Shown: in pieces, positions 34,892-59,085 of the stretch
Numbering within the stretch: the stretch's first letter is position 1
Layout: every line of letters starts with the position of its first letter
From: a virus
Strand: one strand, 5' to 3'
Length of the DNA: 64,000 nucleotides
IMG/VR virus record: IMGVR_UViG_3300027749_000062
Location: 1 to 64,000 of that record
Position numbers and translations under genes: made by a program
The notes under the pieces: generated by a model
What the model saw: only the letters and a program-made list of their open reading frames with translations
What the model was told of the DNA's origin: nothing
The model's database searches: none

Positions 34892-34898
34892 TTATCCT

Positions 34899-35393: not shown

Positions 35394-35401
35394 ATTTTTC
35401 C

Positions 35402-35824
35402 TTAACTTACTGGCACGTTAATTGTAGAACCTGAGCGATTCAAAATTGGCAATAAACCGTTACCAACAGGTATACTAATTGAGGAACCTGCTCTATTTAG
35501 GACGTATAAAGTAGTAGGTAATGTGCTCCAGCTAGCAGTAGTTCCATTTGTTTTTAAGAAATTATTCGCATAACCTGTTTGCGAAGGTAATGGAGAAAAA
35601 GTAGTCCATGCTGGAGGTGAATCTCCTCCACTGATTAGTACTTGTCCTGAAGTACCATATGCAGTATTACTCGTACCAAATGCAATACCTCCATTGGAAG
35701 TCAAAGTAACTACAGTTACATTATTACCTGTTTGAAATTGCAAAGAGCCGGTACTATCGGCACTTGTTTTAAGTCCTGGTACTCCTGTTATTAATCCTGA
35801 ATCTGCTGATATAATGCTAGACAT
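35402..35824 (-). CDS. Fibre adaptor protein
   Basis: SADSTGSLQFQTG N-module, GTSGQVL.S.G and LPSQTG...FLKTNGT..SW fibre repeats. Confidence 0.55.
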   Translation of the reverse strand: MSSIISADSGLITGVPGLKTSADSTGSLQFQTGNNVTVVTLTSNGGIAFGTSNTAYGTSGQVLISGGDSPPAWTTFSPLPSQTGYANNFLKTNGTTASWSTLPTTLYVLNRAGSSISIPVGNGLLPILNRSGSTINVPVS

Positions 35825-35832
35825 TTTTTTCC

Positions 35833-36963
35833 TTATGCTGTGTATGTGCCGCTGGAGGTGAACGTGTGGATTGTGTTTCCACCAGAAGATGTTACTGTAC
35901 CGCCAGAACCGCGTTGTGAACCGGAGTAACTGATGATTACGATACCGGAGCCGCCATTGCCACCAATTCTTCCATTACTTCCGGCATTACCACCGCCGCC
36001 GCCGCCACCGCCAAGATTTGTAGTGCCAGCAACTCCATTTGCGCCGTTGTAAACAGCCCCGGCTCCACCACCGCCAGCGCCGCCTGCTCCGTTGGTTCCC
36101 CCGTTGATACCACCACCTCCACCACCACCAGCGTAATATGTGGAAGTACCTGAAATTGAAGAAGCAAGGCCAGCGCCGCCTGCACCAGAATTAGAGGTAC
36201 TAGAACCGCCTACTGCGCCAGCGCCACCACCGCCGCTGCACCCGTTTCCGCCACTGGCAGTTCCACCTGCATTACCTTGCCCTGCTGTGCCAGCGTAACC
36301 ACTGGTAGCGGGGCCACCGCCGCTTCCAGAACCGCCAGCAATTCCGTTACCAGTGCCTCCGCCAATTGCAGTAAGAGAACTAAGAACTGAATTGCCGCCT
36401 GCTGTTGCGGTGTAGGTGCCATCTCCTGTTCCACCAGCGCCAATGGTGACGGCATATGCAGTTCCCGAAGCAAGACTCAAAGAACTGCCCGACAACAACC
36501 CACCAGCCCCGGCTCCGCCACCTGCTGGCCCATAACCGCCCCCGCCGCCAGCCACAACTAAATAGCTAACTGCGTATGTAGTAACAATTGAACCCCAGTA
36601 GGAGCCGTTGTACAGTTCAAATGAAGACGTTGTGGAGTTGTAGCGAATCATGCCAGCCACTGCTGTGGGCTGCTGTGCAGTAGTGCCGATGGGCAATGTC
36701 AATGCACCCGTGCTATTCAAGGTGACGTTCTGGCTCGTGTCGATGGTGACCGCAGTCGTTCCTGCGCTTTTTATTGTTAGTGCCGTAGCTGCTGCTGAAC
36801 CAATAGTATTTACCGTAGCTGTGCCTGCAAAGGTAGTGTTCCGGCTTGCATCTATGGTGACCGCAGTTGTTCCTGCCGTTTGGAATGCAAGGACTCCTGA
36901 GGCATCTGCGGTCTGTATTAAACCACCTGTACCTGTATTGCTGGCGTTGATTGTTGTGGTCAT
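35833..36963 (-). CDS. Gly-rich fibre/adhesin protein
   Basis: TADASGVLAFQT N-module, LP.GTTAQQP...GMIRYN module, Gly-rich domain ending HTFTSSGTYTA. Confidence 0.65.
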   Translation of the reverse strand: MTTTINASNTGTGGLIQTADASGVLAFQTAGTTAVTIDASRNTTFAGTATVNTIGSAAATALTIKSAGTTAVTIDTSQNVTLNSTGALTLPIGTTAQQPTAVAGMIRYNSTTSSFELYNGSYWGSIVTTYAVSYLVVAGGGGGYGPAGGGAGAGGLLSGSSLSLASGTAYAVTIGAGGTGDGTYTATAGGNSVLSSLTAIGGGTGNGIAGGSGSGGGPATSGYAGTAGQGNAGGTASGGNGCSGGGGAGAVGGSSTSNSGAGGAGLASSISGTSTYYAGGGGGGGINGGTNGAGGAGGGGAGAVYNGANGVAGTTNLGGGGGGGGNAGSNGRIGGNGGSGIVIISYSGSQRGSGGTVTSSGGNTIHTFTSSGTYTA

Positions 36964-37130
36964 GCTGGTGTATCCGCTGGTTCAGGTGTATTACCTTCAG
37001 CAAGCCATTCTAGGTAGGCTTCAGCAGTAACTAAACAAGATTCCTGCTTGCCATCAGACCATTCACGCCACACAACATTTTCTTGTTGAGTCGTTGGGTC
37101 TTTAACTAATTTCCAAATTGGTGTTGTCAT
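36960..37130 (-). CDS. 56-aa fibre-associated small protein (absent from ORF track)
   Basis: MTTPIWKLVKDPTTQQENVVWREWSDGKQESCLVTAEAYLEWLAEGNTPEPADTPA*; overlaps both neighbouring genes (ATGA junctions). Confidence 0.8.
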   Translation of the reverse strand: MTTPIWKLVKDPTTQQENVVWREWSDGKQESCLVTAEAYLEWLAEGNTPEPADTPA

Positions 37131-38344
37131 AATTCACATCCTGTCGCAATAATTAAACTAGTCGCACTACTGCTTTGTAAAGAAGTTGCATTTCCAATAG
37201 TAAGACCACTTGAACCAGTTACATTTAAGGCAAAAGTTGACAAATTTGTTCCAGTTCCATAAATAGCTACTGTTCCTGCGGCAGAAGTTCCATAATTAGC
37301 TGGTATCACAGCAAAAGTTCCACTAGTCGTTATTCCTGTTGCCGCTACTCTAGGCTGAACAGGATAAGGTGCTGTAAAAATAGCCGCAGTTGATGCATAA
37401 CATTGTCCCGCAAACGGGAAATTGCTACTTGCACCAGAAACAGACCAAGCAGGACAATATCTCTGACATAAAGCCAACTCAGTACCATACGGGCGGTAAT
37501 CAAACGATGTAGCTGTGCTGCCTTTTTCTAGCTGTACGCCTGTGATGTAGAACGTGGCTCCGCTTGTGCCGACTACGCTGGTTGCGCCTGTAGCAGAACG
37601 ATAATCACCAGCCGCCCATGCTCCAGCCGTTCCGCTAAAAGTAGAGCCTACACCCAATCCAAAATTAACATAAACCCCAACCCCATTAGTTGCCCCCGCC
37701 CAAGTTCCAGTAGTATCACCAGCAATTGTTATGCTGATTGTTGTCCATGTATTTGCTGAAGAGATGGTGTATGTAAAAGGATATGACCTATTAAAACTTG
37801 ACCCATTTCCTAAACTTCCACCAAAAGTTCCAGTAAGTGATGAATAAACTCTAAAAGATAATGTAACTGTCTGTGCGTTTGCAGTACCCCAAGCCATATC
37901 TGCAAAATTAAACCCTTCAATTGCTTGAATAAATGTGTAAATGCTTCCAGCAACTATTGAAAATGCCGATTGGGATGTTATTCCAAAATAGTTATTAAAT
38001 CCAACTGGAGGAGTTACCGAGCCAGCATTTTGTTGCCCAACAACTTTACCAGTTGTCGGGTATTGAACAACTTGCCATCTATCTACCGTGTATCCACTAA
38101 TAGTATTCGCCGTTGCCGCCCCCGCATTACGCTGGTCAATCACCATCGCACCATTGATGATGCGGTTCTTGAAGCCAAAGGTGTTTGGCAGGTTTGCGTA
38201 GCCAGCAAAGGTGGCATTTTGCGAAGTATCCAGTGTGAGCGCAGTCGTGCCGTTGTTGGTCTGCAATACCAACGCACCTGTGGTATCAGCAGTAGCAACC
38301 AAACCGGTACTGGATGTTGTTCCTGCAGAAATACTTGATGCCAT
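37127..38344 (-). CDS. Fibre protein with a carbohydrate-binding-like jelly-roll domain
   Basis: FKNRIINGAMVIDQR...DRW...ITGVQLEKGSTATSFDYRPYGTELALCQRY. Confidence 0.65.
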   Translation of the reverse strand: MASSISAGTTSSTGLVATADTTGALVLQTNNGTTALTLDTSQNATFAGYANLPNTFGFKNRIINGAMVIDQRNAGAATANTISGYTVDRWQVVQYPTTGKVVGQQNAGSVTPPVGFNNYFGITSQSAFSIVAGSIYTFIQAIEGFNFADMAWGTANAQTVTLSFRVYSSLTGTFGGSLGNGSSFNRSYPFTYTISSANTWTTISITIAGDTTGTWAGATNGVGVYVNFGLGVGSTFSGTAGAWAAGDYRSATGATSVVGTSGATFYITGVQLEKGSTATSFDYRPYGTELALCQRYCPAWSVSGASSNFPFAGQCYASTAAIFTAPYPVQPRVAATGITTSGTFAVIPANYGTSAAGTVAIYGTGTNLSTFALNVTGSSGLTIGNATSLQSSSATSLIIATGCEL

Positions 38345-38353
38345 TTATTATCC

Positions 38354-38968
38354 TTAAAAAATTAACCAGCGTTGGCCGCTGGTAATTGTAACTGATTGTC
38401 CATTCGCCACAGTCACAGGACCAACTGTCATAGCATTATAACCTGCAGCAATTGTATAACTTGAACTTATCGTTGCTCTATTTAGGTATAAACCATTATT
38501 TGCCGTGACTACAGATGCTTGTAATTCACCGGTAGATGGTTTATATAACAAATTTGTATTGCTGGTATAAACTGTAGTCGCAGAACCAGTTGTTGATGCC
38601 GCAAACAATGGATACTCATAACTAGCAGTCGTTGTATCGTTGCTTAGAGTTGCACCACCAACAGAAGTCCATGCAGGAGATGCACCACCATATCCCTCAA
38701 ATTGGCTTGTCGTTGTATTGTAACGCAACATACCAGTAGCTGGACTTGCTGGTTGTTGTCCTGTTGTACCTTTACTTAATGTAAGAGCTCCAGTGGATGT
38801 AAAAGTGCCATTTTGGTTTGCATCAATCAAAAAGGCTTGTGTGCCGTTAGTGGATATAGCTAATTGATTTGTGTTTGGATAGTAAACACCCGTAGTTGTG
38901 CCAGCAGTACCACCTTGTATTGCTGGTGTCGTTGCGCTATTGTCTGTGCCGTTAAGAAATAATGGCAT
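38354..38968 (-). CDS. Fibre adaptor protein
   Basis: GTTGQQP...GMLRYN...FEGY module; C-terminal ...VGPVTV...SGQRWLIF. Confidence 0.55.
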   Translation of the reverse strand: MPLFLNGTDNSATTPAIQGGTAGTTTGVYYPNTNQLAISTNGTQAFLIDANQNGTFTSTGALTLSKGTTGQQPASPATGMLRYNTTTSQFEGYGGASPAWTSVGGATLSNDTTTASYEYPLFAASTTGSATTVYTSNTNLLYKPSTGELQASVVTANNGLYLNRATISSSYTIAAGYNAMTVGPVTVANGQSVTITSGQRWLIF

Positions 38969-39002
38969 AGTTTACTCCACAATTTAGAATGGTTGTTTTC
39001 AT

Positions 39003-39347
39003 TTATTCCAGAACAACCCAAGAAGTAGTTGATTCATTCCATTCGTATATGCCGTCAGTAGGCATTGGTGTTGGTGCATCCCACAGGCAAGTTTCATCAT
39101 TCAATGTCCAAGATGGAAATGGTTGTGGTGGAATAAAAGCGTCACGGGTTCTATCGTAAGTAAAACCAACACCAGCGTAATTTTTACGCAATGGAGTGCC
39201 GCCGTTAGCGTGAACACCGCCTCGGGTATTATAACTAGTCTGGATCCATTCACCAGGACTTGTGTCTACGAATGTTTGAAAAAACTCAGGTTCAGCCACA
39301 ATGACTTGAACTACTACGCCGTTTGATACTTTTGCAAAATGTGCCAT
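39003..39347 (-). CDS. Small fibre-associated protein (paralogue of 30506-30847)
   Basis: Near-identical motifs WIQTSYNT, PLRKNYAGVG, RDAFIPPQPFPSW. Confidence 0.65.
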   Translation of the reverse strand: MAHFAKVSNGVVVQVIVAEPEFFQTFVDTSPGEWIQTSYNTRGGVHANGGTPLRKNYAGVGFTYDRTRDAFIPPQPFPSWTLNDETCLWDAPTPMPTDGIYEWNESTTSWVVLE

Positions 39348-39365
39348 ATTAACTCCTTAACTTTT

Positions 39366-40913
39366 TTATGCTGTGTATGTACCGCTTGATGTAAATGTAT
39401 GTATAGTGTTTCCACCAGAAGATGTTACTGTACCACCTGTGCCTTTTTGCGAACCGGAGTAACTGATGATGACGATGCCGGAACCACCATTAGTGCCCGT
39501 ATTTGGGGCGTTCCATGTACAGCCCCCACCACCACCAGAATTTACAGTCGCGGCATTGGGATATGCGCCGCCGCCACCTGCACCGCCGCTGCCGTTACCA
39601 CCAGCGCCGGCACCACCACCACCGCCAGCGTAAGTAACACTGGAACCGGATATGCTACTTGCTGTTCCAGCACCACCCGTTCCACCAGAAGAACCAGAAC
39701 CAGAATTTCCGGCCGCTGAAGCGCCTCCGCCGCCACCACACGCATTGCCACCACCTCCACCGCCACCGGCATTTCCTTGCCCAGTAGTGCCAGAGCCGCC
39801 GCCATTACCACCGCGGCCGCCACCACCAGAACCACCAGAAACGCCAGTACCGGAACTACCGCCACCACCACCAAGAGCAGTTACAAGACTACCAATACTT
39901 GAATTACCGCCGGTATCACCAACACCGGTTGCCGCTGGTTGAGCGGATCCACCTGCACCAACAGTCACTGTGTATGCGGTTCCAGTAAGAACACTGGTAG
40001 ACGAAGTTAAAAGGCCTCCAGCCCCTCCGCCACCTGAACCTCCGCTGCCACCGCCACCGCCAGCAACTACCAAATAACTGACTGTGTAAAAACCTAAATT
40101 AGCTAATGTGGTGAGAAATGTTGGTGTAAGAGCCGTGCTGAACACAAACCATGAAGTGGATGCAGAACGATATATGTAAGATATTGATTGTCCCGGCACT
40201 AACCCAGGAATTGTGTTATTCAGCGTCTGTCCTGTATTAGCATTAAGTGTAAGTGTAGTAATTTCTTTTGTGCTACTGAAGCTAACCACCATTCCATCAC
40301 TAGGTGAAGCAGGCATTGTAATGGTTCCGGTAAGCAATGTACCGGCCGGGTTGATTATCAGCGTGTTGTAGGTGCTGAAAGTATATGAGAACCCCGTAGT
40401 CGGGACTAGGTAGTCGTAGTTTTGCACTACGCCTTTACCAGTGGATTTAATTGTGCCCGCGAACGTGGCGTTTTGGCTTGTGTCAATAGTGACCGCTGTG
40501 TTTCCATTAGTAGCAATAGTAACTGGACCACCAGACGAGGCCACAGATACGTTAGATGTGCCGTTAGAAATGGATGTTGTTGACAGAGTAGTCCAAGTAG
40601 GTGATGCACTCGATCCTGCTGAAGTCAGAACTTGTCCGTTTGTTCCAAAAGATGGTGTAGAACCTAAACCTATTGCTTGACTTGAATTAAGTGTGAGCGC
40701 AGTAGTTCCTGCACTTTTTAATGTGAGTGATGTAGCTGCTGCCGAAGTGATAGTGTTTGATGTAATTGAACCATTAAATGTTACATTTTGATTAGAATCG
40801 ATAAGAACTGCATTAGCTGAACTTGTACCAGTTTGTATTTGCAGATTGCCAGATAAATCTGACCTTACTGTAAATGCTGTTGTGAGTAAAGTTCCAGTTG
40901 ATAGTGTGCTCAT
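39366..40913 (-). CDS. Gly-rich fibre/adhesin protein
   Basis: SDLSGNLQIQTG N-module; Gly-rich domain ending HTFTSSGTYTA, as in 35833-36963. Confidence 0.65.
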   Translation of the reverse strand: MSTLSTGTLLTTAFTVRSDLSGNLQIQTGTSSANAVLIDSNQNVTFNGSITSNTITSAAATSLTLKSAGTTALTLNSSQAIGLGSTPSFGTNGQVLTSAGSSASPTWTTLSTTSISNGTSNVSVASSGGPVTIATNGNTAVTIDTSQNATFAGTIKSTGKGVVQNYDYLVPTTGFSYTFSTYNTLIINPAGTLLTGTITMPASPSDGMVVSFSSTKEITTLTLNANTGQTLNNTIPGLVPGQSISYIYRSASTSWFVFSTALTPTFLTTLANLGFYTVSYLVVAGGGGGSGGSGGGGAGGLLTSSTSVLTGTAYTVTVGAGGSAQPAATGVGDTGGNSSIGSLVTALGGGGGSSGTGVSGGSGGGGRGGNGGGSGTTGQGNAGGGGGGGNACGGGGGASAAGNSGSGSSGGTGGAGTASSISGSSVTYAGGGGGAGAGGNGSGGAGGGGAYPNAATVNSGGGGGCTWNAPNTGTNGGSGIVIISYSGSQKGTGGTVTSSGGNTIHTFTSSGTYTA

Positions 40914-48681: not shown

Positions 48682-51336
48682 TTACGGTAGTTTTGCCTTC
48701 AGTTCCTCTACTTGGTCACTCAGTTCTTTGATGGCCTCAATCAATAATGGCACCAGACGTTCATAATTAATTGTCAAATATTGACTATCTATAGGTGCAG
48801 GATGAACAATTTCAGGTAAAACTGATTGTACTTGTTGTGCAGATACACCAACTTCGCGCCTTACTTTATAACCCAAATCTTGTGCCGTTTGATTAGCTTC
48901 ATAATAGAAACCATTGAGTGACTTAACTTTATCTAAAGCACCTATGATGTTTCCTAAATTCGTTTTTAGTTTATCATCAGAATAATATGCAGTAATAGTT
49001 CCAATTGCACGAATTTCACCAGCCGTTGTTGAAGCAGCCGTACCAATACCAATTGAATTAAATTGAGAATTCTGTGTTGTGCTAGTAAATGTTGCAGCAG
49101 AACCTGTGGTATTTTGATTCAATGTTGGGAATGTACAATTGCTCAAATTACCTGATGATGGAGTACCAAGTATTGGAGTTACTAAAGTGGGACTTGTTGC
49201 AAAAACTAATGCACCAGAACCAGTTTCATCAGTAACAGCTGCCAGTAAATTGGCAGAATTGGAAGTTGCTAAGAAATTAGCAACATTTGTGGCAAGACCT
49301 GAAATACCAGTAGAAACTGGCAAACCAGTACAGTTTGTCAATGTACCTGAATTTGGTGTGCCAAGTACAGGTGTTACTAAAGTTGGAGTATTTGAAAGTA
49401 CAACTGAACCTGTTCCGGTAGAAGATGCAACTCCTGTACCACCAGATGAAACTGGAACAGGTTGTGAAGAAGTTATTTGTCCTGCAGCAATATTTGCATT
49501 TAGTGTTCCATAATTTGCATACACTATAGCACCAACTGAGTTACTTGTTGGATTTGTTGCTAGACCTTGGAATAGATAATAATTACTTCCTGCAACTCTT
49601 ACTAAACCTGCATATTTTGTACCTGCACTTACATATTGGCCATAAAAACCAATGTCAACTGTATCCGATAAATTGTTCGCAGCTAATTCAATCAATGAAT
49701 CAACTGTTTGGAAGGTTGAAACATTAATATATGAAGAAGTTCCATTGACAAATAAATTACCTGTGACACCTAAATCACCAGACAATGTACCACCAGTTCT
49801 TGGTAATGCATTATTTGCCGTTGTGAAAGCTGAATTTGCATAAGAACCTGATGTTACTGCTTTAGTGTCTGCTGTAGCTGCATTTGTTGTTGCTGTATTT
49901 GCTTGTGTATACGCAGCGTTTGCCTGAATAAATGCAGGTTGTGCAGATAAAGCCGCCGTATTAGCAGCACTAAATGCTGAGTTAGCATAAGCACCAGATG
50001 TTATTGCATTAGCGTTGGCATTATTTGCCGCCAAATATGCAGAGTTAGCATAAGTGCCTGTCGTATTTTGAGATTGATATGCTGAATTTGCTTGTGTAAA
50101 CGCAGGTTGTGCAGATAAAGCCGCCGTATTAGCAGCACTAAAAGCGGCATTTGCTTGGATAAAAGCACCAGTTAAAACTTTATTTGTTGGTACTGTTGTT
50201 GTGCTTGTTGATGTTGTACTATCAGAAATCATATTTGCAGTCATGATTTGTGAGTACTGTGTACCATTGTTTACATCTAAAATATCAAAATATTTACCTG
50301 TTTCATACCAACGTATAGTCGCATTGGCATTTGGAATACCAGTTGGTTGATTATTTGCAGTACCTCTATTAACACTAAAATAACTTATAACAGGTGTATT
50401 TGTGTTTGCATTTATTACAAAATTATTTGTTGTATAAACAACTGTTCCATTAAGTACAAAAGAACCGCCAACAGTTACTGAACCTGATGTTGTCAATGAT
50501 TGAAAAGCACCAACAGCATTTGTTGCTGAAAGTGATGATCCAGTCAATGTCATATTATTGATTGTTTGAGCACCAGACTGTAGATTATTAGCAAACAAAT
50601 ACGAAGAATTGGCAAAACTAAATGCCGAATTGGAATATATTCCGGTAGTATTTTGGGAACCATAAGCTGAATTAGCTTGTGTAAATGCTCCTAAGATGTA
50701 TGCAATAATATCATAACCATTAACAACTGCGCTTGTTGCTGCAATAATGGAACCTCCAAAATTACCATTTGAAGTTACTGTTAATTGGCCAGCATTAATT
50801 CTATTATTTGAAGTTAAAAATGATGTATAAGTGTTTCCTGTTATACTTACGTTTCCTGTAATTCCTGCACCTGCACCTACAGTCAATGAATTTTGTAATG
50901 TTGCTGCACCTAATACATTGATTGTGTTAGAAATGGTTGTTGTACCAGAAACACTTAATGTTCCACCTAAGGTTGAATTATTTGATACTGATAAACTAGT
51001 ACCTGTATTTGTGGCGTAGATAGTTCCATTAGAAGTAATCGAACCACTTGCAACTAAACTCTGTGATGTATTTGTGAAATATACTTGTTTACCTACAGTT
51101 AAGTTGTTGTCGATGGTTGCAGAAGAAGATGTACCTGTAACTTGTAATAATCCGGAAATTGTAGCATTATTTCCAACAGATAGAGATGTGCCTGTTCCAT
51201 TTAAAATCAAAGAACCAGAATCTTTTGTCCAATCATACTTACCGATTGAATTGATTTCATTTGAATCGGCGTTTGTTGCAACAATCCAATCACCAAATGT
51301 GTTGGCGAAACCTAAAATATTGACTGTATTTGCCAT
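48682..51336 (-). CDS. Tail fibre with C-terminal intramolecular chaperone (peptidase S74)
   Basis: N-terminal NTFGDWIVATN; C-terminal YYSDDKLKTN...GVSAQQVQSVLPE...YERLVPLLIEAIKEL. Confidence 0.85.
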   Translation of the reverse strand: MANTVNILGFANTFGDWIVATNADSNEINSIGKYDWTKDSGSLILNGTGTSLSVGNNATISGLLQVTGTSSSATIDNNLTVGKQVYFTNTSQSLVASGSITSNGTIYATNTGTSLSVSNNSTLGGTLSVSGTTTISNTINVLGAATLQNSLTVGAGAGITGNVSITGNTYTSFLTSNNRINAGQLTVTSNGNFGGSIIAATSAVVNGYDIIAYILGAFTQANSAYGSQNTTGIYSNSAFSFANSSYLFANNLQSGAQTINNMTLTGSSLSATNAVGAFQSLTTSGSVTVGGSFVLNGTVVYTTNNFVINANTNTPVISYFSVNRGTANNQPTGIPNANATIRWYETGKYFDILDVNNGTQYSQIMTANMISDSTTSTSTTTVPTNKVLTGAFIQANAAFSAANTAALSAQPAFTQANSAYQSQNTTGTYANSAYLAANNANANAITSGAYANSAFSAANTAALSAQPAFIQANAAYTQANTATTNAATADTKAVTSGSYANSAFTTANNALPRTGGTLSGDLGVTGNLFVNGTSSYINVSTFQTVDSLIELAANNLSDTVDIGFYGQYVSAGTKYAGLVRVAGSNYYLFQGLATNPTSNSVGAIVYANYGTLNANIAAGQITSSQPVPVSSGGTGVASSTGTGSVVLSNTPTLVTPVLGTPNSGTLTNCTGLPVSTGISGLATNVANFLATSNSANLLAAVTDETGSGALVFATSPTLVTPILGTPSSGNLSNCTFPTLNQNTTGSAATFTSTTQNSQFNSIGIGTAASTTAGEIRAIGTITAYYSDDKLKTNLGNIIGALDKVKSLNGFYYEANQTAQDLGYKVRREVGVSAQQVQSVLPEIVHPAPIDSQYLTINYERLVPLLIEAIKELSDQVEELKAKLP

Positions 51337-51560: not shown

Positions 51561-53753
51561 TTAGATTCCTGTTCCTGCTGGCAATGCTAATGCACGAATA
51601 TCAGTTAAGAAAGGAACATTTGTATTATCACTTGTCGCTAAAACAATTTTGATTGCAAATTGAATAAATGATGTATACTTTTGACCTGTTGTTGCACTTA
51701 CATAACTGATGCTGTTGTTTGCTTGGTTACTTGCATAAATGCCAGGCGCAGCTTCATATTCATACAAATCGGTTCTAGATGTGGAAAATGTATTTGGATT
51801 CTGCATAGTTGTCATCAACTGCCAGTTACCTGATTCAAACGGAGCTGTATCTAATGAATTCAAAATTTTGTAATAAACATAGATAGCTGTACCTAATGGT
51901 TTATATGCAGTATAAAATACTCTTAAATCACCTGAATCATTTCCTGGTGCAAGTACAACTTTCTTAGTGAAATATTTTGCATATGAATTACCACCTTTTG
52001 ATGATGTTTCACCTGTTACTGTAACAACAGCATTTGCATTTCCTCCGCGAGTAGCTGGATTGGAAATTGTAATTGTTGGTGATGTTAGATAACCAGAACC
52101 TGGTGTAATTGCATATACAGAAGTAATTGCACCGTTGGCATTTGCAGTAAATCCTAATGTTGCAACATTTGAACCAACATCTGGACTTGAAATTGATATT
52201 GTTGTTGCATTGACGTTATAACCATAACCTGGATTGGTAATAGATATAACATTATTACCAATTCCCATGTTATTGATGAGATAAGAAATCGCATACATCG
52301 TAACACCATCGTCCGAAATGATTGGGGTCACGTTAGGATCACTTGTGGCCATTGTTGCATACAATGAGAAGGAATTATTTGAATACTTTAATAGGGTTCT
52401 TTCTCCATTTCCATCATTTAAGTAAATGTCATCAGGTAAAGGACTTCCTAATCTTCCAGGAGTAATTGAATTTGTACCTGTTGGTACATTTCCAGTCTTT
52501 AATGTTGCTGTATATGAATAATTGATACTTGTTCCTGTTGGTGCAAGGTCAGTTGTGGTGATATTCATTGCATCATAAACTCTACTTGGAGAATAATTAC
52601 CAAATATCTGTGAGGCACTATTCGCATCTATCTTATTCAAAATATCTTGGTTGCCCATTTTTCTAAATGGCAAACCTTTGGGTACAGTAAACTGAACCGA
52701 AGCTGTGGTTGTAGAGAACACACATTTATCAATAACAAACATCAAATCTTTTGTTTGGTCTGCTGACCATGTTATACCATTTTGAGATTCAAACAAAGCA
52801 CCAACATAAGGAGCTGCACCAATTTTTGTTGGATTACTTGGATTTGCATCTGATACATTAGCTTTTGCAGTAGAGGGTACAGCTATTTGATTTTGTTGAC
52901 CATAATAAAGTACATAATCTTTAGAAGCTGAATTAACAATAAAAGCGTACAATACACCAGATTGAATATAAACCGGTGCATCAAAAACAAATTCTGTATA
53001 AGCACTTGGATCCAAATAATGTGGTGTGCTGGATGTGTTTACTTGGTTTGGAAGTAACATAACCGTAGAGTAATCTAATGTAGAACCATCAGGATAACCA
53101 TTAATTGTAGGTACAACACTAATTTTTACTGGAATATTTGTTGAAGGTTTTGAATAGAAAAATAATTTGATTGAGTATAAGAAAATGCCATTGGGGTAAT
53201 TATCTTTTGAAACAATAAATGTTTGTGCAACCGGATCACTATTACCTGTTTGTACGGTAGTAGAACGAGTCGTTGTAACTGAACTAATTAATTGATTGGC
53301 TCTTTGATTTACTTGAGTAAATACAGATTTAGAAGAATCTATTGAAGGTGCAAAATCTAATTTTTGTGAGGATGTTGAAAGACCTGAGGCGACAAATGTT
53401 CCTTCGGCAAATGTTGTTGCGGTTGTTAAATCTGTGGCCACAGTTCTATTATCTACGCGAAATACTCTACTTCCGGTTTGAAATGTAGTGGAAGGAACAT
53501 TGAAAATACCAACAAAATTACCAGCTTCATCTGTCGAAGGTTTAGCTAATGAGTTTCCAGTTTGCACCGCCGAGCTAATTTTAGTTAAATTGCCTGAAAT
53601 GGAATAACGAGAACTAATATCTCCACCCATTTCTGTATTTGTACCCAACGATAAATTTACAGGAGTACTAAGTGTAACAAGTTTTGTTACCGGATCATAT
53701 GCTGTAATGGTTGCAGAATAAGTGTAAAGACTTGAGCGATAAAGTGTTGTCAT
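51561..53753 (-). CDS. C-terminal part of the DUF4815/VrlC-type large structural protein
   Basis: F.TG.RVFR, DPVAQTF, GALFESQNG.TWSADQTKDLMF, F.QFAIKIV...P...DIRALAL; own ATAAATA motif and GGA RBS. Confidence 0.8.
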   Translation of the reverse strand: MTTLYRSSLYTYSATITAYDPVTKLVTLSTPVNLSLGTNTEMGGDISSRYSISGNLTKISSAVQTGNSLAKPSTDEAGNFVGIFNVPSTTFQTGSRVFRVDNRTVATDLTTATTFAEGTFVASGLSTSSQKLDFAPSIDSSKSVFTQVNQRANQLISSVTTTRSTTVQTGNSDPVAQTFIVSKDNYPNGIFLYSIKLFFYSKPSTNIPVKISVVPTINGYPDGSTLDYSTVMLLPNQVNTSSTPHYLDPSAYTEFVFDAPVYIQSGVLYAFIVNSASKDYVLYYGQQNQIAVPSTAKANVSDANPSNPTKIGAAPYVGALFESQNGITWSADQTKDLMFVIDKCVFSTTTASVQFTVPKGLPFRKMGNQDILNKIDANSASQIFGNYSPSRVYDAMNITTTDLAPTGTSINYSYTATLKTGNVPTGTNSITPGRLGSPLPDDIYLNDGNGERTLLKYSNNSFSLYATMATSDPNVTPIISDDGVTMYAISYLINNMGIGNNVISITNPGYGYNVNATTISISSPDVGSNVATLGFTANANGAITSVYAITPGSGYLTSPTITISNPATRGGNANAVVTVTGETSSKGGNSYAKYFTKKVVLAPGNDSGDLRVFYTAYKPLGTAIYVYYKILNSLDTAPFESGNWQLMTTMQNPNTFSTSRTDLYEYEAAPGIYASNQANNSISYVSATTGQKYTSFIQFAIKIVLATSDNTNVPFLTDIRALALPAGTGI

Positions 53754-53772
53754 TTATTTTTCCAAAATTTTA

Positions 53773-56700
53773 TTAATTATTTATTGTCTTGGGAAATGAT
53801 TTATCACCAAAAACTCTACTAATTGTATATAAGAAAGCAAATAGTGCCCACATTCCGTAACCTGTTACTATACCAGCTTGCTTGTCTTTTCTTGGTAATA
53901 AGTTGACTATTTTACTAATTGGTTTACCAATATTCATAATAATTTTACCAGCGAGATTATCTTTATCTCTCTTACCCATTATATATGCCATATGTTCAGC
54001 CCAAGGTGTTGCAATTCTATGAGCCCATTTTGTTGCAAGTTTTGCTTGGACTTCAGAACGCTTCTTATCATCTTTAATCCAGAACATACATTGTGGACCT
54101 TCACCGGACATCCAATCAACAACAACTGTAGCCCAACGAATATAACCATGATAGGCCGCAGGGTCATTCAATTTTAACAATTCACCAAATTCTTGGTCCG
54201 CCTTGTAAATTGATTCATCCATTAGTCCCAATTGGTATAGTTTGGTACAGATAATTTTACCTCCACCACCGCCACCTCCAGAAGGTTTTGGTGGAGGTGG
54301 AACATATGTTGCAGATACATCGAGACTGTAAACATATTTTGATGTAATGTTAATTGTTGAACCAACATAGTAACTAGAAGTATTTGAAGCAGTAGCTGGA
54401 TCCAATCTTAATTGAGTTGCACCAACAAACCACTCTGCGCCAGCTGGCATTCTAACCGAAGTTCCTGCATTAGTATATGTAATCGGTGGATTAATTGTAG
54501 TATACACTATCGTGTTTGATGCATTCTTAATTGTTGCACCAAAAGCTGATGTTGTTGTACCTGAACTTGTTGCGGTCCATCCAAGTTTTACCGTTGTTGG
54601 TGCATTTGATACTGTATAAGTAAAAGTTGTTGTTGATGCTGGTGTGTTCGTTAAAGAAGTTCCAATGCTTGTACCATTCGCATAAACTGTTGCTGAACCT
54701 GATGCACCAACCTCTATCGTGTAAATTCCGTTAGCTGTGAGTGTGACGGGTGAGGTAAAATTGAAATTGGTACTATTAGTTCCATCACCCCAAACTCCAT
54801 AGTTATTCAATAGTGATGAATAACCTTGTACTATTGGTGTTCCAAATATTTGTGTTGTTGTATTACCATTTAATGTATTTGACCAACCACCACCAACACC
54901 ACTAATTGAACCACTTTGGCTTATGTTTATTACTGAATTAGAGGCTACTGTTCCTGATGCAGAAGAAGACAAGTAATTTCCACTAGAGTCAAATGTTGCA
55001 TTCCTTAAAGTTGTAGATCCTAATAAATTAGGAACACCAAGAATATCTGAAACATATAAACGAACTTTTGTCGTATCTGTATAATAATAAACAGTTGTTA
55101 CACGAGCAATTGGATAGAACACACTGGCAATATAAAAACCAATAATATCATCATTATTAAATGTGCCAGAAACACCTGTCAATTCAATTGTATTTGGAGC
55201 AGTCATGTATCGTGATACATCTACACCATCAAAGAATGTCGATACATTTGAATTGACCAACAAACCAGATGCACGAATAATAACTTGTTGCGGTCTAATG
55301 TAAGGCAATACTGTAATATTAGTCAAGTATCCATTATTAATTCCAAATGTGGAAGAAGTAGGATTATATGCACCTGAAGTAACATTTTGAATTTGACTTG
55401 CATATGTTTGCGTTGTTGTGCTTACAGTAGTTGTCCTAGATGTACTAGTAGTGGATACGCTTGAGCTAGAACTACTACTTGATGATAATGTTCCTGGAAT
55501 AGTTTGATAATCACCTGAATTTAACAAGTTAACACCAGTTGTGGCTTGATATATTTGAAAATTAGGATTAGTAACTAAAATCGCTGGTGCTTGATTGTTA
55601 TCTACCCAATTGTCCATTGGTGGGTTCATTTGTAATAACCCCTGTTGGACTGAAACATTGAATGGATTTACAGAAACTGTACTACTTGCAAGTGGTTGAA
55701 CAGCAACATTTTCTGTTGTGTATGGTAAAGTAAACAGATTTGTTTGAGCACCATTGATGCTATTAATTCTATAACTATTTGTATTTGCTATCGTTCCTAA
55801 ACTCGCAAGCACAACAGGATTTTGGAGTTGAAAATTATCAACCAATTGCAATGCAGTTAGTTGATTTTTACGAACATTGATGTTTGCAGCATAGTCTGGA
55901 TTTTGTGTGTCTGCTGTTCCAAATGATGAAAAATCATCAACCAATATACCATTCTTAAAACGATTTAAACCATTAGCATCAGGAATTTGTAAAGAACTAG
56001 CTTTTTGTTCCAAAATACTTAATGATGTATAATATTCTAAATTATTAACACGGGTTTCTAAATCTGTAATATCTTCTTTAGCCCAACGCTTGTGAATAAT
56101 TTTATTGATAGACAAGTTTGATGGAACACCAGGTGTACCCTCACCAGGAACAAAAGCTGTATATGGGTCGTGAAATAAATTTGCAATTATCATAGAACCA
56201 GATGGTTCATTTGGCAATAATGGATTAACAGAAGGTGTACCTTGAATTATATTAAAACTCTTATCTTTTGTTAATACTAATTTGTCGTTTCTACCCAAAT
56301 AGTATTGATAGAAACCTGTAAAGTTTGATAAATTATTGGGTATCAACATACCAATATCATTCGTAGAAGTTTGTGTACCTGAATATTCCCAAACATATGC
56401 AGTCTGACCATTAACTCGGCAAGGCCTAAAATCAATACAATCTCTTAATGCATATTGTACACCATCTTTAGCTGTGTATGAACCAATTTGTGCATAAGCT
56501 TCTGCTGAACTCGATACACCACCATAAGTTGAGCCTGATGTATTATATGATTGGATACTGAAATAACCATCACCAGAAGATGCTTGTGTGTGAGAATAGT
56601 AATCTACAGCAACAAGAATATTTCCTGAAGGAATCGGCGCACCTGGAATCAATGAAACCGATGCATGGTCATAGAAACTATCTCTTTGGCCATTGTCTAA

Positions 56701-59085
56701 TGTGAAATAAGAAGTAATATCTGTATAATTTGACAATGAACCTGATGGATTTGTACCAGCAACACCTGAATCAAATACACCTACAATTCTTTTAACATCA
56801 TTTACATACAATGACATTTTTCCAGTTGCTGTAATGTCTGTTTTACTAATTGTAATTTGACCTTTTGTTAAATCCTGATAAGAATTTGTTCCAGAAACTG
56901 ATGCAAGTGTACCAACAGTTACGGTGTTACCCGTAACTAAAGATTTTGATTTTAAAACATAACTTGAAGAATCACCACTGCTTGCTTGGACTTGTGCAAT
57001 AATTGTAACATTTTTATTTGTACCAACACCAGAACCAACTGTAAATGTTGCTTGAGTTTTATCAGAAGAAATTGAAATTGTATTACCTGATGTAGTAAAA
57101 TCTAAAACATTACCTGTTGAATTATCAACAACCATGAATAATTGCGGCGCAGATGAACTATCTAAAGTACCTGTACCTTCAAATCTTAATGGATTACTTG
57201 CATTGCCTGATGTTGCTTGTAGTGTTAATGTATTACCAGTAAATGTTTTTGAACGATATACTCTTTGTGTAAAATAAGAAGTGGTGGTTAATTGTGCAAC
57301 ATATGGATAACCAATTTGAAATATTAATTCGGGTGAAACTTGTGAATATAATATTGTATCTGAATTTGCAAGACCATTAACTTTACCACTTGCTGCATTT
57401 ATATTCACATTTGCGGTTAGCGCATAAGAACCAGAACCGGCAGTTTTAACAATAGATTCAACATCATAATTTTCATATATCAATGAGAAAGTTGATGTTG
57501 CTGTTGGTGTTACTGTGAATGGAGAATCCACATTTACTACTTTGGAAGCACCATTGTAACTTGTAATATTTCTCAAATCAATAATACCGCCAGTATTCAT
57601 ACTTACTGTTACATTGAAGTAAGAATTTGAAGTGGCTGAGAATGAACCGTTTGTATCATTAATTGTGAAGGTTGTTGCAGTGCCTGATGTAACATTTCCG
57701 GATAATGTGTTTGCAGCAAAATCTGAAATATATGCATTGAAAATATATGTTTTAGTATTTGTTCCAGTACCTGAATTATATTTCAAGTTACGCATGAAAG
57801 CAGAACCAATCAATGTTGATGAATAAGTTGTAGTATTTGTTGAAACAATGTTAGCTGCAGGAACACAATGCAAATCAACTTGAGGCAATGTAGAAATATC
57901 AAATACACCATTAGAGGTGTCTACAACAAAATAATTTCCGTAATCCACATAAACTGGATTATTACTGATATTTGCAACAGACTGAGCTCTTGTGTTTGTT
58001 AATTTAATATCAGATTGGTTCTCTACTCGATAACCATGAACATATGCAACACCTTTACTAATACTTAAATCATAGGTTGTATTTGATGTAGAATTTGCAG
58101 ATGGTGTTAGTTTGAAATCATTAACAATATAATCACCATTTGTTTCATAATCACGTTTTGCAAAGTAATCATCGATGGTTGAGTAAACAGTGCCATCAAC
58201 TTGTTTTAAAATATTACCATTTTCAATCCGAACCAATTCAATAAAATTATCATCATTACCTAAAGTCAAAGGCAACGTAATCAATGTTAGTGTGATAACA
58301 TATCTGTCTGCACCCGGTGCTTGATAGTTGGATGCACCAATAGCAGGATCCAACAAAGAAGAATCATTGATGTAATCGTAAATTGTTTCTGTAATTTGTA
58401 AACCAATGCGGTATGATGGTAAATTATCATACTTGTCTAAAATGATTGTCTGTGGATTAACAGTAACAAAGTTACCTATTGAATATTGGATGCCAGTACT
58501 ATTTGAAATGGAATATCCATTAACAACATAAAATACACCATTCGCAATAGAAGCAACCGATGAAAGACCAGTTGAAGATATGGTTGTTGATACTGAATTA
58601 ACTACTGTAGTGGTCGATGTAGCGACAGAAGCATAGTATGTTGAACCTGTGCTTGTTGAAATAACACTACCATCGGTAAATTGAGCACCTGAGAGATATG
58701 TTACAATCAATGTTGGTGGGTCACCAACGGTGGAACCACTAGTTGTAGTTTCAGCCGTAGCAATAACTCTAGCAAGAATTGTTCCTGTTGAATCTTGAAT
58801 AATTTGGCCTGCGAAATTCCCAGCAGTTACTGTAATACCATTGTAAGTATTGTTCAGTTTAATATAATAACATTGTTGATTAAGTGTGACTTGTCCACCC
58901 GAAACTGGTGTATTTGTAGAATATATCGCAGAAGCAAATTCAGAAATTTGATTCTGTAAAATTGTTTGAGACTGTGTTAATTCACGAGCTTGAACCGCAG
59001 AACCTGGCTTAAACAGTATGCGGTGAAAGTTTTTTGATGGGTCAAAATCGTCAAAATATGGACCAACATTGAAATTTAAAGACAT
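53773..59085 (-). CDS. N-terminal part of the DUF4815/VrlC-type large structural protein, ending in a 'KIICT' domain
   Basis: PYFDDF...RILFKPG.AVQARELTQ.QTILQNQI, APGADRY, LE.RV.NLEYYTSLS.LE, RFKNGILVDDF. Confidence 0.85.
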   Translation of the reverse strand: MSLNFNVGPYFDDFDPSKNFHRILFKPGSAVQARELTQSQTILQNQISEFASAIYSTNTPVSGGQVTLNQQCYYIKLNNTYNGITVTAGNFAGQIIQDSTGTILARVIATAETTTSGSTVGDPPTLIVTYLSGAQFTDGSVISTSTGSTYYASVATSTTTVVNSVSTTISSTGLSSVASIANGVFYVVNGYSISNSTGIQYSIGNFVTVNPQTIILDKYDNLPSYRIGLQITETIYDYINDSSLLDPAIGASNYQAPGADRYVITLTLITLPLTLGNDDNFIELVRIENGNILKQVDGTVYSTIDDYFAKRDYETNGDYIVNDFKLTPSANSTSNTTYDLSISKGVAYVHGYRVENQSDIKLTNTRAQSVANISNNPVYVDYGNYFVVDTSNGVFDISTLPQVDLHCVPAANIVSTNTTTYSSTLIGSAFMRNLKYNSGTGTNTKTYIFNAYISDFAANTLSGNVTSGTATTFTINDTNGSFSATSNSYFNVTVSMNTGGIIDLRNITSYNGASKVVNVDSPFTVTPTATSTFSLIYENYDVESIVKTAGSGSYALTANVNINAASGKVNGLANSDTILYSQVSPELIFQIGYPYVAQLTTTSYFTQRVYRSKTFTGNTLTLQATSGNASNPLRFEGTGTLDSSSAPQLFMVVDNSTGNVLDFTTSGNTISISSDKTQATFTVGSGVGTNKNVTIIAQVQASSGDSSSYVLKSKSLVTGNTVTVGTLASVSGTNSYQDLTKGQITISKTDITATGKMSLYVNDVKRIVGVFDSGVAGTNPSGSLSNYTDITSYFTLDNGQRDSFYDHASVSLIPGAPIPSGNILVAVDYYSHTQASSGDGYFSIQSYNTSGSTYGGVSSSAEAYAQIGSYTAKDGVQYALRDCIDFRPCRVNGQTAYVWEYSGTQTSTNDIGMLIPNNLSNFTGFYQYYLGRNDKLVLTKDKSFNIIQGTPSVNPLLPNEPSGSMIIANLFHDPYTAFVPGEGTPGVPSNLSINKIIHKRWAKEDITDLETRVNNLEYYTSLSILEQKASSLQIPDANGLNRFKNGILVDDFSSFGTADTQNPDYAANINVRKNQLTALQLVDNFQLQNPVVLASLGTIANTNSYRINSINGAQTNLFTLPYTTENVAVQPLASSTVSVNPFNVSVQQGLLQMNPPMDNWVDNNQAPAILVTNPNFQIYQATTGVNLLNSGDYQTIPGTLSSSSSSSSSVSTTSTSRTTTVSTTTQTYASQIQNVTSGAYNPTSSTFGINNGYLTNITVLPYIRPQQVIIRASGLLVNSNVSTFFDGVDVSRYMTAPNTIELTGVSGTFNNDDIIGFYIASVFYPIARVTTVYYYTDTTKVRLYVSDILGVPNLLGSTTLRNATFDSSGNYLSSSASGTVASNSVINISQSGSISGVGGGWSNTLNGNTTTQIFGTPIVQGYSSLLNNYGVWGDGTNSTNFNFTSPVTLTANGIYTIEVGASGSATVYANGTSIGTSLTNTPASTTTFTYTVSNAPTTVKLGWTATSSGTTTSAFGATIKNASNTIVYTTINPPITYTNAGTSVRMPAGAEWFVGATQLRLDPATASNTSSYYVGSTINITSKYVYSLDVSATYVPPPPKPSGGGGGGGKIICTKLYQLGLMDESIYKADQEFGELLKLNDPAAYHGYIRWATVVVDWMSGEGPQCMFWIKDDKKRSEVQAKLATKWAHRIATPWAEHMAYIMGKRDKDNLAGKIIMNIGKPISKIVNLLPRKDKQAGIVTGYGMWALFAFLYTISRVFGDKSFPKTINN

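What the first reader, a model, noticed from the sequence alone, without database searches (positions are those of the whole stretch)
53561..54420. Split DUF4815 virion gene: first half ends in Pro/Gly linker, 'KIICT' Cys domain and membrane tail (candidate intein-analogous autoprocessing module)
Seen: the S/T/N-rich beta protein changes abruptly at ...SATYVPPPPKPSGGGGGG|KIICTKLYQLG. A charged, W/M-rich helical domain of about 160 aa follows and ends in a hydrophobic segment (AGIVTGYGMWALFAFLYTISRVF). After a 19-nt gap with its own GGA RBS and an upstream ATAAATA late motif, a new ORF in another frame resumes the same type of sequence (YTYSATITAYDPVTK) and carries the remaining DUF4815 motifs (DPVAQTF). 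The separate expression signals argue against a sequencing frameshift. Knowledge: poly-Gly followed by Cys is how Hint/Hedgehog autoprocessing domains and CFI-box-CTERM sorting domains begin. Inference: the domain may tether the N-half to the membrane during assembly and self-cleave by an N-to-S acyl shift. It might then ligate to, or assemble with, the separately translated C-half.
Basis: partly seen in the sequence, partly recalled or inferred. Interest (0 to 1): 0.85.

Follow-up and report, generated by a model that had tools for sequence, protein, structure and literature searches.

The report
Split phage baseplate gene with Cys-led module
A freshwater phage encodes its large VrlC (T4 gp7-like) baseplate protein as two adjacent genes, and the break carries a conserved but uncharacterised 160-residue helical module that starts with an invariant cysteine; related phages have other cassettes at the same break, including a self-cleaving Hint-like domain, or none at all.

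Summary
The VrlC/DUF4815 baseplate gene is split into a 1770-aa ORF and a 730-aa ORF on the minus strand, 19 nt apart. The first ORF ends in a Pro/Gly linker plus a 162-aa module (KIICT...) with a hydrophobic tail.

- **Not an artefact.** Contigs from four independent freshwater runs bridge both junctions without indels.
- **A real domain family.** There are 779 hits among 50%-identity cluster representatives, always C-terminal, with Cys in 133/133. The AF2 model is all-helical (pLDDT 91.6). It has no Pfam, NCBIfam or PHROG match and no clear PDB match. It is not a Hint fold.
- **An exchangeable slot.** In 40 close relatives the same site holds this module, a paralogue (RVICT), a different Cys-led module (CCVIAT), a Hint-like domain starting Gly|Cys-Phe, a short tail, or nothing (fused gene).
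- **Recurrent gene breaking.** The module breaks VrlC at three or more positions and breaks Gly_rich_2 fibre domains mid-domain.
- **Under selection and exchanged.** dN/dS is 0.02-0.07, and dS is lower than in the flanks.

My reading is a gene-fracturing, exchangeable C-terminal cassette. It is probably a detachable membrane tether, but self-cleavage is unproven. First readers of this scan had already noted the same module in other genomes.

The parts
53773..59085 (-). ORF 1 (P0001, 1770 aa): N-fragment of the VrlC/DUF4815 (T4 gp7-like) baseplate protein plus linker and module; the stop TAA is at 53773-53775
   Evidence: PF16075 E 1.8e-57; phrog_358 positions 5-1273
55084..59085 (-). Residues 1-1334: the part homologous to intact VrlC proteins
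   Evidence: phrog_358; blastp to ORM_20 and Sf-CH8 VriC; PDB 9euf DUF4815 chain matches residues 926-1165, E 6e-26
54301..55083 (-). Residues 1335-1595: extra S/T/N-rich beta region. It is kept in the fused relatives and ends in the strand ...SKYVYSLDVSATYV that precedes the break.
54259..54300 (-). Pro/Gly linker PPPPKPS-GGGGGGG (residues 1596-1609). It is the conserved 5' boundary of the cassette slot.
   Evidence: the same linker precedes every cassette type in relatives
53776..54258 (-). KIICT module (residues 1610-1770): six predicted helices, member of a large uncharacterised C-terminal family
   Evidence: phmmer gives 779 representatives at E<=1e-3; AF2 pLDDT 91.6; dN/dS 0.02-0.07
54247..54249 (-). 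Invariant Cys codon (TGT, Cys1613) at the start of helix 1
   Evidence: C invariant in A2; 133/133 representatives
53809..53877 (-). Hydrophobic C-terminal helix AGIVTGYGMWALFAFLYTISRVF flanked by basic residues (putative tail anchor)
   Evidence: A 17-aa hydrophobic window (KD>=1.6) is present in 93/139 family members. The window's own tail scores 1.54, just under that arbitrary cut.
53778..53784 (-). ATAAATA late-promoter-like motif inside the end of ORF 1, 25-31 nt upstream of the ORF 2 start
   Evidence: 14 of 17 copies are on the coding strand and several lie 22-38 nt upstream of starts. It is present at -26 to -40 in 12 of 26 split relatives.
53754..53772 (-). 19-nt spacer with GGA (53761-53763). 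The restart signal GGAAAAATAAATGACA is conserved whatever the cassette and forms the 3' boundary of the slot.
51561..53753 (-). ORF 2 (P0002, 730 aa): C-fragment of VrlC. Its first strand LYTYSATITAYD pairs by inference with the last strand of ORF 1.
   Evidence: phrog_358 positions 1308-1612; ORM_20 residues 1127-1719; fused orthologues

Best explanation
This is a fractured baseplate gene. An exchangeable cassette sits in a loop of the VrlC (gp7-like) protein. The cassette consists of the Cys-led helical module and a stop codon, and it lies between two conserved flanks: the Pro/Gly linker upstream and the restart signal downstream.

**Shown**
- The break is real and inherited.
- The module belongs to a very large, always C-terminal, strongly constrained domain family found on phage baseplate and fibre proteins.
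- The same slot in close relatives carries alternative cassettes: a KIICT paralogue, a CCVIAT module, a Hint-like domain or a short tail. In other relatives the slot is closed again to give one ORF.
- Related modules occur on different host genes and at different break points.

**Inferred**
- The two VrlC fragments reassemble non-covalently. The last strand of ORF 1 and the first strand of ORF 2 would form the hairpin that is continuous in the fused orthologues.
- The module hangs from that loop on the flexible linker and is held at the inner membrane by its hydrophobic C-terminal helix during morphogenesis.
- The module is then detached at or near the linker. This could happen through its own invariant Cys, by analogy with the Hint-like domain that occupies the same slot, or through another protease, so that it is not part of the mature baseplate.

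Cassette turnover probably uses homologous recombination between co-infecting phages, through the (GGN)n linker and the conserved restart sequence.
For: **The split is real**
- The ORFs, the profile coverage and the reads agree.

**The module is a domain family**
- 779 hits among cluster representatives, with the module always within 53 aa of the C-terminus.
- Cys in 133/133; K at -3, I/V at -2 and -1, L at +3 and G at +7 in 86-99%. Invariant C, D, GY, WA and G columns in the alignment of long proteins.
- Confident all-helical model, pLDDT 91.6, pTM 0.84.
- N-terminal partners are diverse: Gly_rich_2 in 15/49, DUF4815 in 11/49, Hint families in 5, plus PA14 and He_PIG.

**The slot is exchangeable**
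- Six states are seen at one site among 40 relatives.
- The RVICT cassette is homologous to the module (hhalign probability 98%, E 1e-13).
- The Hint-like assignment rests on Pfam E 1e-5 to 2e-4 for L102, below the gathering cut-off.
- The C-half tree needs at least 14 state changes. The fused L089 still carries a linker scar and nests inside the KIICT clade (96*). Hint-bearing L117 is sister to KIICT-bearing L118 (99*).

**Breaks recur independently**
- VrlC is broken at roughly ORM_20 positions 1075, 1120 and 1237 in different lineages.
- Gly_rich_2 domains stop at profile position about 167 of 226 and are followed by the module, or by Hint plus the module. In L037 the next ORF resumes the domain.

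**Selection and exchange**
- Module dN/dS is 0.02-0.07.
- Module dS is 0.24-0.31 against 0.51-1.08 in the flanks for two of three relatives (L086, L087; the nearest, L085, shows none).
- VrlC-borne modules are scattered across the module tree, next to modules from other host proteins.
- The CCVIAT cassette is also found on both DUF4815 and Gly_rich_2 hosts.

**Detachment idea**
- Hint-like domains occupy the same slot.
- Full Hint domains ending VHN sit directly before KKIICT (P0023 Hom_end_hint scores 33.5 bits against a cut-off of 32.1).
Against: - No direct evidence of cleavage, membrane insertion or absence from virions.
- The module has no Hint fold, no conserved His, and no known protease or autoprocessing signature.
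- The Cys follows K-I-I, not Gly.
- The hydrophobic tail of this copy is only moderately hydrophobic (KD 1.54), and a distant subclade lacks the tail.
- Fused and short-tail relatives show that the baseplate protein works without any module, so any benefit is accessory or absent.
- The lower dS rests on 98 synonymous sites and could partly reflect codon or mRNA constraints.
- The hairpin pairing is inferred from sequence only.
Confidence: 0.45

Rival explanations
1. Selfish gene-fracturing cassette. The Cys-led modules, and the Hint variants, are mobile insertions that spread by recombination into Gly-rich loops of structural genes. They persist because the host protein tolerates being split. 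The module's conserved function serves the element itself, for example exclusion of or competition against co-infecting phages at the membrane, rather than virion assembly.
For: - Presence/absence and replacement polymorphism among close relatives.
- Independent break points and different host genes.
- Module dS is lower than in the flanks.
- The module is dispensable for VrlC, because fused and short-tail forms exist.
- The arrangement parallels the fractured genes of phage metagenomes (PMC2677866).
Against: - No nuclease or other mobility engine lies in or beside the cassette.
- Very strong purifying selection on a non-nuclease domain is hard to explain without a function.
- The conserved partner ORFs (families A and B) beside module genes in other loci suggest a working system.
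Confidence: 0.25
2. Retained virion domain. The module stays on the baseplate or fibre at the end of its flexible tether and inserts its hydrophobic helix into the host envelope during adsorption, acting as an anchor or membrane-active accessory.
For: - The module is found only on host-contacting proteins: baseplate VrlC, PGII-type Gly-rich fibres, and proteins with PA14, He_PIG or CBM domains.
- It has a long flexible linker and a hydrophobic tail.
Against: - Hint domains ending HN|K between the fibre and the module would cut the module off.
- A Hint-like domain alone can replace the module in this slot.
- An exposed transmembrane helix on a free virion is unfavourable.
- The module is dispensable in close relatives.
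Confidence: 0.15
3. Protein ligation. The Cys forms a thioester at the linker, and the N-terminus of the C-half, or a lipid, resolves it. This would rejoin the two halves or lipidate the N-half.
For: - Only the analogy with the Hedgehog-type Hint-like domains found in the same slot and the adjacency of the two chain ends.
Against: - C-half N-termini are not conserved nucleophiles (T, A, S, P or G after Met).
- There is no IntC-like segment.
- The module is never internal to a protein.
- Short-tail split forms work with no module.
Confidence: 0.05
4. Artefact: assembly chimera, sequencing frameshift, or a programmed frameshift that joins the two ORFs.
For: - None found.
Against: - Independent contigs bridge both junctions without indels.
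- The architecture is conserved at 50-97% identity in many metagenomes.
- The module is under purifying selection.
- The spacing between the ORFs varies (19, -11, 12, 1, 29, -8, -1 nt), so there is no conserved recoding geometry.
Confidence: 0.01

Closest known systems
Fractured genes of phage metagenomes (Dassa et al. 2009, PMC2677866)
   Same: A conserved phage gene is broken into two adjacent ORFs by an inserted element, and the arrangement is seen mainly in environmental phage contigs. [quoted passage not shown] Here the restart signal is instead conserved on the host-gene side, whatever the cassette.
   Different: In the published cases the halves carry a split intein (IntN and IntC), a free-standing homing endonuclease lies between them, and the hosts are DNA-metabolism enzymes. 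Here there is no IntN or IntC and no endonuclease. The insert is a Cys-led helical module fused to the N-fragment, and the hosts are baseplate and fibre proteins.
Hedgehog-type Hint and bacterial intein-like (BIL) autoprocessing domains
   Same: They are C-terminal, start with Cys after Gly, and are used to sever what lies upstream or downstream. Hint-like domains occupy this very slot in sister phages and precede the module in other proteins.
   Different: The module has no Hint HMM match and is predicted to be all-helical. Its Cys follows K-I-I, and it has no TxxH block and no terminal HN.
Peptidase_S74 intramolecular chaperone of phage fibres and tailspikes (present on the neighbouring fibre gene, 48682-51336)
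   Same: It is a conserved, exchangeable C-terminal module on otherwise variable phage fibre proteins, and it is released by autoproteolysis after assembly.
   Different: S74 uses a Ser-Lys dyad, has no hydrophobic tail and does not split genes. P0001 has no S74 match.
Tripartite C-terminal sorting signals (GlyGly-CTERM, MYXO-CTERM, CFI-box-CTERM)
   Same: They share a Gly run or Cys motif, a hydrophobic helix and a basic tail at the extreme C-terminus.
   Different: Those are signals of about 30 aa on secreted proteins, cut by dedicated sortase-like enzymes. Here about 125 aa of folded helices lie between the motif and the helix, the protein has no signal peptide, and NCBIfam gives no match.
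VrlC/VriC (DUF4815), the gp7 substitute of pelagi- and cyanomyophage baseplates (PMC7029224)
   Same: This is the host gene. It occupies the same position, after the baseplate wedge genes and before the tail-fibre/host-recognition cluster.
   Different: In cultured phages it is a single ORF (885 records match P0002; ORM_20 has 1722 aa and Sf-CH8 has 2468 aa). Here it is two ORFs with a cassette.

Membership tests
DUF4815 / VrlC baseplate protein (host gene) | Match to PF16075 above the gathering score | tested here: met
   E 1.8e-57, 195 bits against a cut-off of 30
DUF4815 / VrlC baseplate protein (host gene) | One polypeptide covering the whole family profile | tested here: not met
   phrog_358 positions 5-1273 lie in P0001 and positions 1308-1612 in P0002. 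In ORM_20 the break falls between residues 1111 and 1127.
Hint / intein / Hedgehog autoprocessing domain (for the module) | Hint HMM match | tested here: not met
   No Hint family hit for P0003 or P0001 at E<=1
Hint / intein / Hedgehog autoprocessing domain (for the module) | All-beta Hint fold | tested here: not met
   The AF2 model is six helices, pLDDT 91.6. Foldseek finds no PDB match at E<=1e-3.
Hint / intein / Hedgehog autoprocessing domain (for the module) | Nucleophile Cys/Ser as the first residue, directly after the scissile bond | tested here: inconclusive
   The Cys is invariant but lies four residues after the Gly run, behind K-[IV]-[IV]. 20% of members have a second Cys right after the Gly run.
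Split intein / fractured gene (Dassa 2009) | IntN on the N-fragment, IntC ending HN plus C/S/T on the C-fragment, and an endonuclease ORF between them | tested here: not met
   The spacer is 19 nt with no ORF. P0002 starts MTTLYRS with no IntC-like segment. C-half N-termini vary.
Peptidase_S74 intramolecular chaperone | PF13884 match at the C-terminus | tested here: not met
   No match in P0001 or P0003. The neighbouring fibre protein does match, E 1.2e-9.
CFI-box-CTERM / other CTERM sorting domains | Match to the NCBIfam model | tested here: inconclusive
   No such hit at E<=1 for the module, the CCVIAT cassette or the partner ORFs. I could not confirm that the library holds that model.
NEL (IpaH/SspH/SlrP) Cys-dependent E3 ligase domain | Shared fold with a catalytic CxD loop | tested here: inconclusive
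KIICT module family (unnamed, defined here) | C-terminal position; K-[IV]-[IV]-C-T-x-L...G, Y-x-A-D, G-Y-x-x-W-A, P-W-A-x-x-M-A and G-x(6)-G motifs | tested here: met

The most novel reading that the evidence does not exclude
The Cys-led helical modules (KIICT/RVICT, and perhaps CCVIAT) are a new, non-Hint class of self-processing protein domain. They use the invariant N-terminal Cys to break the peptide chain at the Gly linker, possibly by thioester chemistry, and possibly transfer the upstream fragment to a nucleophile. Together with Hint-like domains they would form a pool of mobile cassettes that fracture phage baseplate and fibre genes.
Probability: 0.15. Interest if true: 0.92.

Novelty: new variant of a known kind. 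Interest (0 to 1): 0.72.

Why it matters
- **A large unnamed family.** The module family has at least 779 clusters at 50% identity, is almost entirely viral where taxa are known, and has no name, fold assignment or proposed function. It sits in host-recognition and baseplate genes of abundant aquatic phages.
- **A natural experiment.** In one slot of one gene the module can be replaced by a Hint-like domain, by other Cys-led modules, or by nothing. This points to a shared role and offers isogenic-like variants to compare.
- **If the module self-cleaves,** it would be a new autoprocessing chemistry scaffold, which would be of interest for protein engineering.
- **If it is a selfish cassette,** it extends the fractured-gene idea from DNA-metabolism enzymes with split inteins to structural genes with a non-intein insert.
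- **For annotation,** the two ORFs should be annotated as fragments of one baseplate protein, not as a frameshift error.

Tried and rejected
- **Single-sequence AF2 of the module.** Poor model, pLDDT 45. It was superseded by the alignment-based model.
- **Sequence searches for the module.** The PDB search with profile A1 found nothing. Pfam, PHROGs and NCBIfam gave no family.
- **ESM Atlas.** Only unnamed viral clusters were returned.
- **hhalign of KIICT against CCVIAT.** Probability 15%, E 1.7e-3, over the N-terminal motif only, so homology is left open.
- **Complex prediction with two copies of the module.** No support, score 0.02. This is not evidence either way.
- **Literature.** No paper holds the motif strings, and no paper describes this module.
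- **RNA runs.** No RNA holder was listed for the stretch.
- **T4 late promoter.** The exact TATAAATA is not near the junction; there is only one copy in the window.
- **Partner ORF families A and B.** They are absent from the window. The remaining 40 kb of the record was not searched.

Full report
**1. What is there**

Both genes lie on the minus strand.
- ORF 53773-59085 encodes 1770 aa (P0001), and ORF 51561-53753 encodes 730 aa (P0002).
- P0001 matches DUF4815 at E 1.8e-57.
- One PHROG profile, phrog_358, is covered by the two proteins in series. Positions 5-1273 match P0001 residues 3-1334, and positions 1308-1612 match P0002 residues 59-388.
- tblastn of P0002 finds 885 phage records, annotated VrlC/VriC or adsorption-associated tail protein.
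- In pelagi- and cyanomyophages VrlC replaces T4 gp7 in the baseplate and precedes the host-recognition cluster (PMC7029224). The window has the same gene order.
- Intact homologues are single ORFs: ORM_20 with 1722 aa and Sf-CH8 with 2468 aa. In ORM_20 coordinates, P0001 ends at residue 1111 and P0002 starts at residue 1127.
- After the last beta strand, P0001 continues through PPPPKPS-GGGGGGG into a 162-aa segment (P0003). That segment starts KIICTKLYQLG and ends in a hydrophobic stretch with basic flanks.
- After the stop there is a 19-nt spacer with GGA. ATAAATA lies 25-31 nt upstream of the second ATG.

**2. Not an artefact**

The genome is a 104-kb IMG/VR virus record, and the stretch is held by freshwater metagenome runs. 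Contigs from four runs in four studies bridge both junctions with no indels. The same two-ORF layout occurs in other IMG/VR contigs at 50-97% identity. The spacing between the ORFs varies (19, -11, 12, 1, 29, -8, -1 nt), which argues against programmed recoding.

**3. The module is a domain family**

- phmmer against 1.8 billion cluster representatives gives 779 hits at E<=1e-3 and 73 hits at E<=1e-30, in proteins of 72-1859 aa.
- The match always lies at the C-terminus, with at most 53 residues after it.
- The Cys is present in 133 of 133 hits that cover it. K(-3), I/V(-2), I/V(-1), L(+3) and G(+7) are 86-99% conserved.
- The 15 residues upstream hold a run of four or more Gly in 68 of 133 hits. 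In the rest they are Gly-rich, made of Cys-Asn repeats, poly-Pro, or the end of a Hint domain.
- Further invariant positions are the AD motif, GY..WA, PW..MA and two Gly.
- With a 50-sequence alignment, AF2 gives a confident six-helix model (pLDDT 91.6, pTM 0.84).
- N-terminal partners are diverse: Gly_rich_2 in 15/49, DUF4815 in 11/49, Hint families in 5/49, plus PA14, He_PIG and CBM domains.
- The only hit among cultured phages is Synechococcus phage SynMITS9220M01 gene 028, where 34 Pro and 8 Arg precede SIICK.

**4. One slot, many occupants**

I fetched 40 close relatives of the C-half and classified what follows the conserved ...SKYVY..ATYVPPPPAPSGGGGG. Six states are seen:
- the KIICT module (the window, L085-L087, L109, L118);
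- an RVICT module, homologous to KIICT (hhalign probability 98%, E 1e-13);
- a different module of about 115 aa that begins CCV[IV]ATAL or GCVVATEL and also ends in a hydrophobic helix (alignment A3). Its relation to KIICT is unresolved;
- a Hint-like domain starting GGGGGG|CF[TS]xNT, with a TxxH block, no terminal HN, and a helical tail of about 90 aa. For L102 the Pfam Hint, Hom_end_hint and Vint matches are at E 1e-5 to 2e-4, below threshold. L117 is weaker (Hint 0.013, PT-HINT 0.053);
- a short aromatic-acidic tail;
- a single fused ORF of 2100-2340 aa.

In L092-L097 the fused sequence runs straight from ..KYVYIYNNKYYDKIQTFKSVITAYD. That looks like a tight hairpin whose turn is the insertion point; this is inference. 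L089 is fused but keeps a PPPQLPSGGAGG scar.

The restart sequence GGAAAAATAAATGACA is conserved whatever the cassette. The slot therefore has two conserved flanks.

On a quick ML tree of the C-half, the slot state changes at least 14 times. L089 nests within the KIICT clade (96*), and Hint-bearing L117 is sister to KIICT-bearing L118 (99*).

**5. Recurrent fracturing**

Among module-bearing VrlC genes from more distant lineages, the break lies at different places in ORM_20 coordinates:
- about 1120 in the window clade;
- about 1237 in L040 and L079, where the C-part starts right at the DPVAQTF motif;
- about 1001-1079 in L080, and similar in L013 and L061.

In Gly-rich (PGII-type) fibre proteins, the Gly_rich_2 profile stops at about position 167-184 of 226 and is followed by the module. 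In P0023 it is followed by a full Hint (C...VHN, Hom_end_hint above the gathering score) and then KKIICT. In L037 the next ORF begins MADGGGGGG... and supplies the rest of the domain. For comparison, the window's own Gly_rich_2 proteins are intact, with profile coverage to position 225.

**6. Selection and exchange**

Against L085, L086 and L087, the module has dN 0.003-0.018 and dN/dS 0.02-0.07, which is tighter than the flanks. Its dS is 0.31 and 0.24 for L086 and L087, against 0.51-0.63 and 0.62-1.08 in the flanking gene parts (98 synonymous sites, so this is suggestive only). For L085 the module dS (0.147) is within the range of its flanks.

At the nucleotide level the module is 90-98% identical where the flanks are 75-92% identical.

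In a module tree, VrlC-borne modules are scattered and often sit next to modules from other host proteins. For example, the nearest neighbours of the P0033 and L040 modules are on 500-930-aa Gly-rich proteins. The CCVIAT cassette is likewise found on both DUF4815 and Gly_rich_2 hosts.

**7. Interpretation**

The firm part:
- This is a fractured structural gene whose break carries an exchangeable C-terminal cassette.
- The KIICT module is a functional, selected protein domain of unknown biochemistry.

The inferred part:
- The fragments reassemble by strand pairing at the hairpin.
- The module is tethered to the membrane by its tail.
- The module is removed at the linker.

The detachment idea rests on the Hint-like domains that occupy the same slot or directly precede the module, and on the fact that the module is dispensable. 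The module itself fails the tests for a Hint domain, a split intein, an S74 chaperone and a CTERM sorting signal.

The rivals are:
- a selfish cassette whose function serves its own spread;
- a retained membrane-active adsorption domain;
- protein ligation;
- an artefact, which is excluded.

The homodimer prediction gave no verdict.

**8. Relation to earlier notes of this scan**

First readers had flagged the same module in this genome and in four others. Those notes included a Gly-rich adhesin split by repeated modules, and a second 'ICT' domain in the next gene. I reproduced both patterns on independent loci (L037, L010 and L016). I found no HMM support for the CFI-box label.

**9. Limits**

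- Model coordinates could not be inspected.
- No expression or proteome data were available.
- The host of the phage is unknown.

Noticed in passing
window 30857-40913 (minus strand): There is a G+C-rich island (0.42-0.51 against 0.35 elsewhere). It encodes three proteins with intact Gly_rich_2 domains (profile coverage to position 225 of 226), one of which is also fused to DUF7483. Gly and Ala codons explain the composition. These are unsplit counterparts of the Gly-rich domains that the module breaks in other phages.
   Followed up: partly
window 48682-51336 (minus strand): An 884-aa tail fibre has a C-terminal Peptidase_S74 intramolecular chaperone domain (E 1.2e-9). This is a known self-cleaving C-terminal module two genes downstream of the split gene.
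   Followed up: partly
window, 17 sites (e.g. 16169, 17374, 21432, 30477, 53778, 60524): ATAAATA is rarer than chance (17 copies against 27.6 expected). 14 of the 17 copies are on the coding strand, and several lie 22-38 nt upstream of start codons. This is consistent with the NATAAATA-type late promoter of T4-like aquatic phages, which I recall from memory and did not check.
   Followed up: partly
L037:8458-8871, L010:8414-9301, L016:8458-9279, L025:3221-3577, L041:2944-3270 and others: In non-VrlC loci the module-bearing gene is usually followed, and often overlapped, by one of two conserved small ORF families. Family A is about 135-155 aa, has a Cys-rich N-terminus, and is sometimes fused to an RVICT-type second module. 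Family B is about 105-125 aa. There are 28 and 29 hits respectively among the 80 loci, and neither family matches Pfam or NCBIfam. They may be partners of the module.
   Followed up: partly
L001:6675-8525 (Synechococcus phage SynMITS9220M01 gene 028): In this cultured cyanophage the module follows a run of 34 Pro and 8 Arg on a 616-aa Gly-rich protein next to fibre genes. It is the only cultured carrier found, so it is the natural test system.
   Followed up: no
proteins P0007, P0029, P0030, P0034, P0040, P0055, P0080, P0092, P0107, P0121: Instead of poly-Gly, these proteins have Cys-Asn/Cys-Asp dipeptide repeats (..NCNCNCNC..CACDC) and 'YNC' repeats directly upstream of the module. This is an unexplained Cys-rich repeat class.
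   Followed up: no
L104, L106, L107, L101 (end of the N-fragment ORF): The split relatives without a module end in a short tail with a shared aromatic-acidic motif (DFSWSDY, WWSWSDWFD, YPWDDFNSWD) after the same linker. This may be a docking peptide rather than a deletion remnant.
   Followed up: no
P0001 residues 926-1165: A solved structure of a DUF4815 protein exists: PDB 9euf and 14 related entries, 'ORF65', 1152 aa, E 6e-26. It could be used to place the break on a real baseplate structure. I did not identify its source publication.
   Followed up: no
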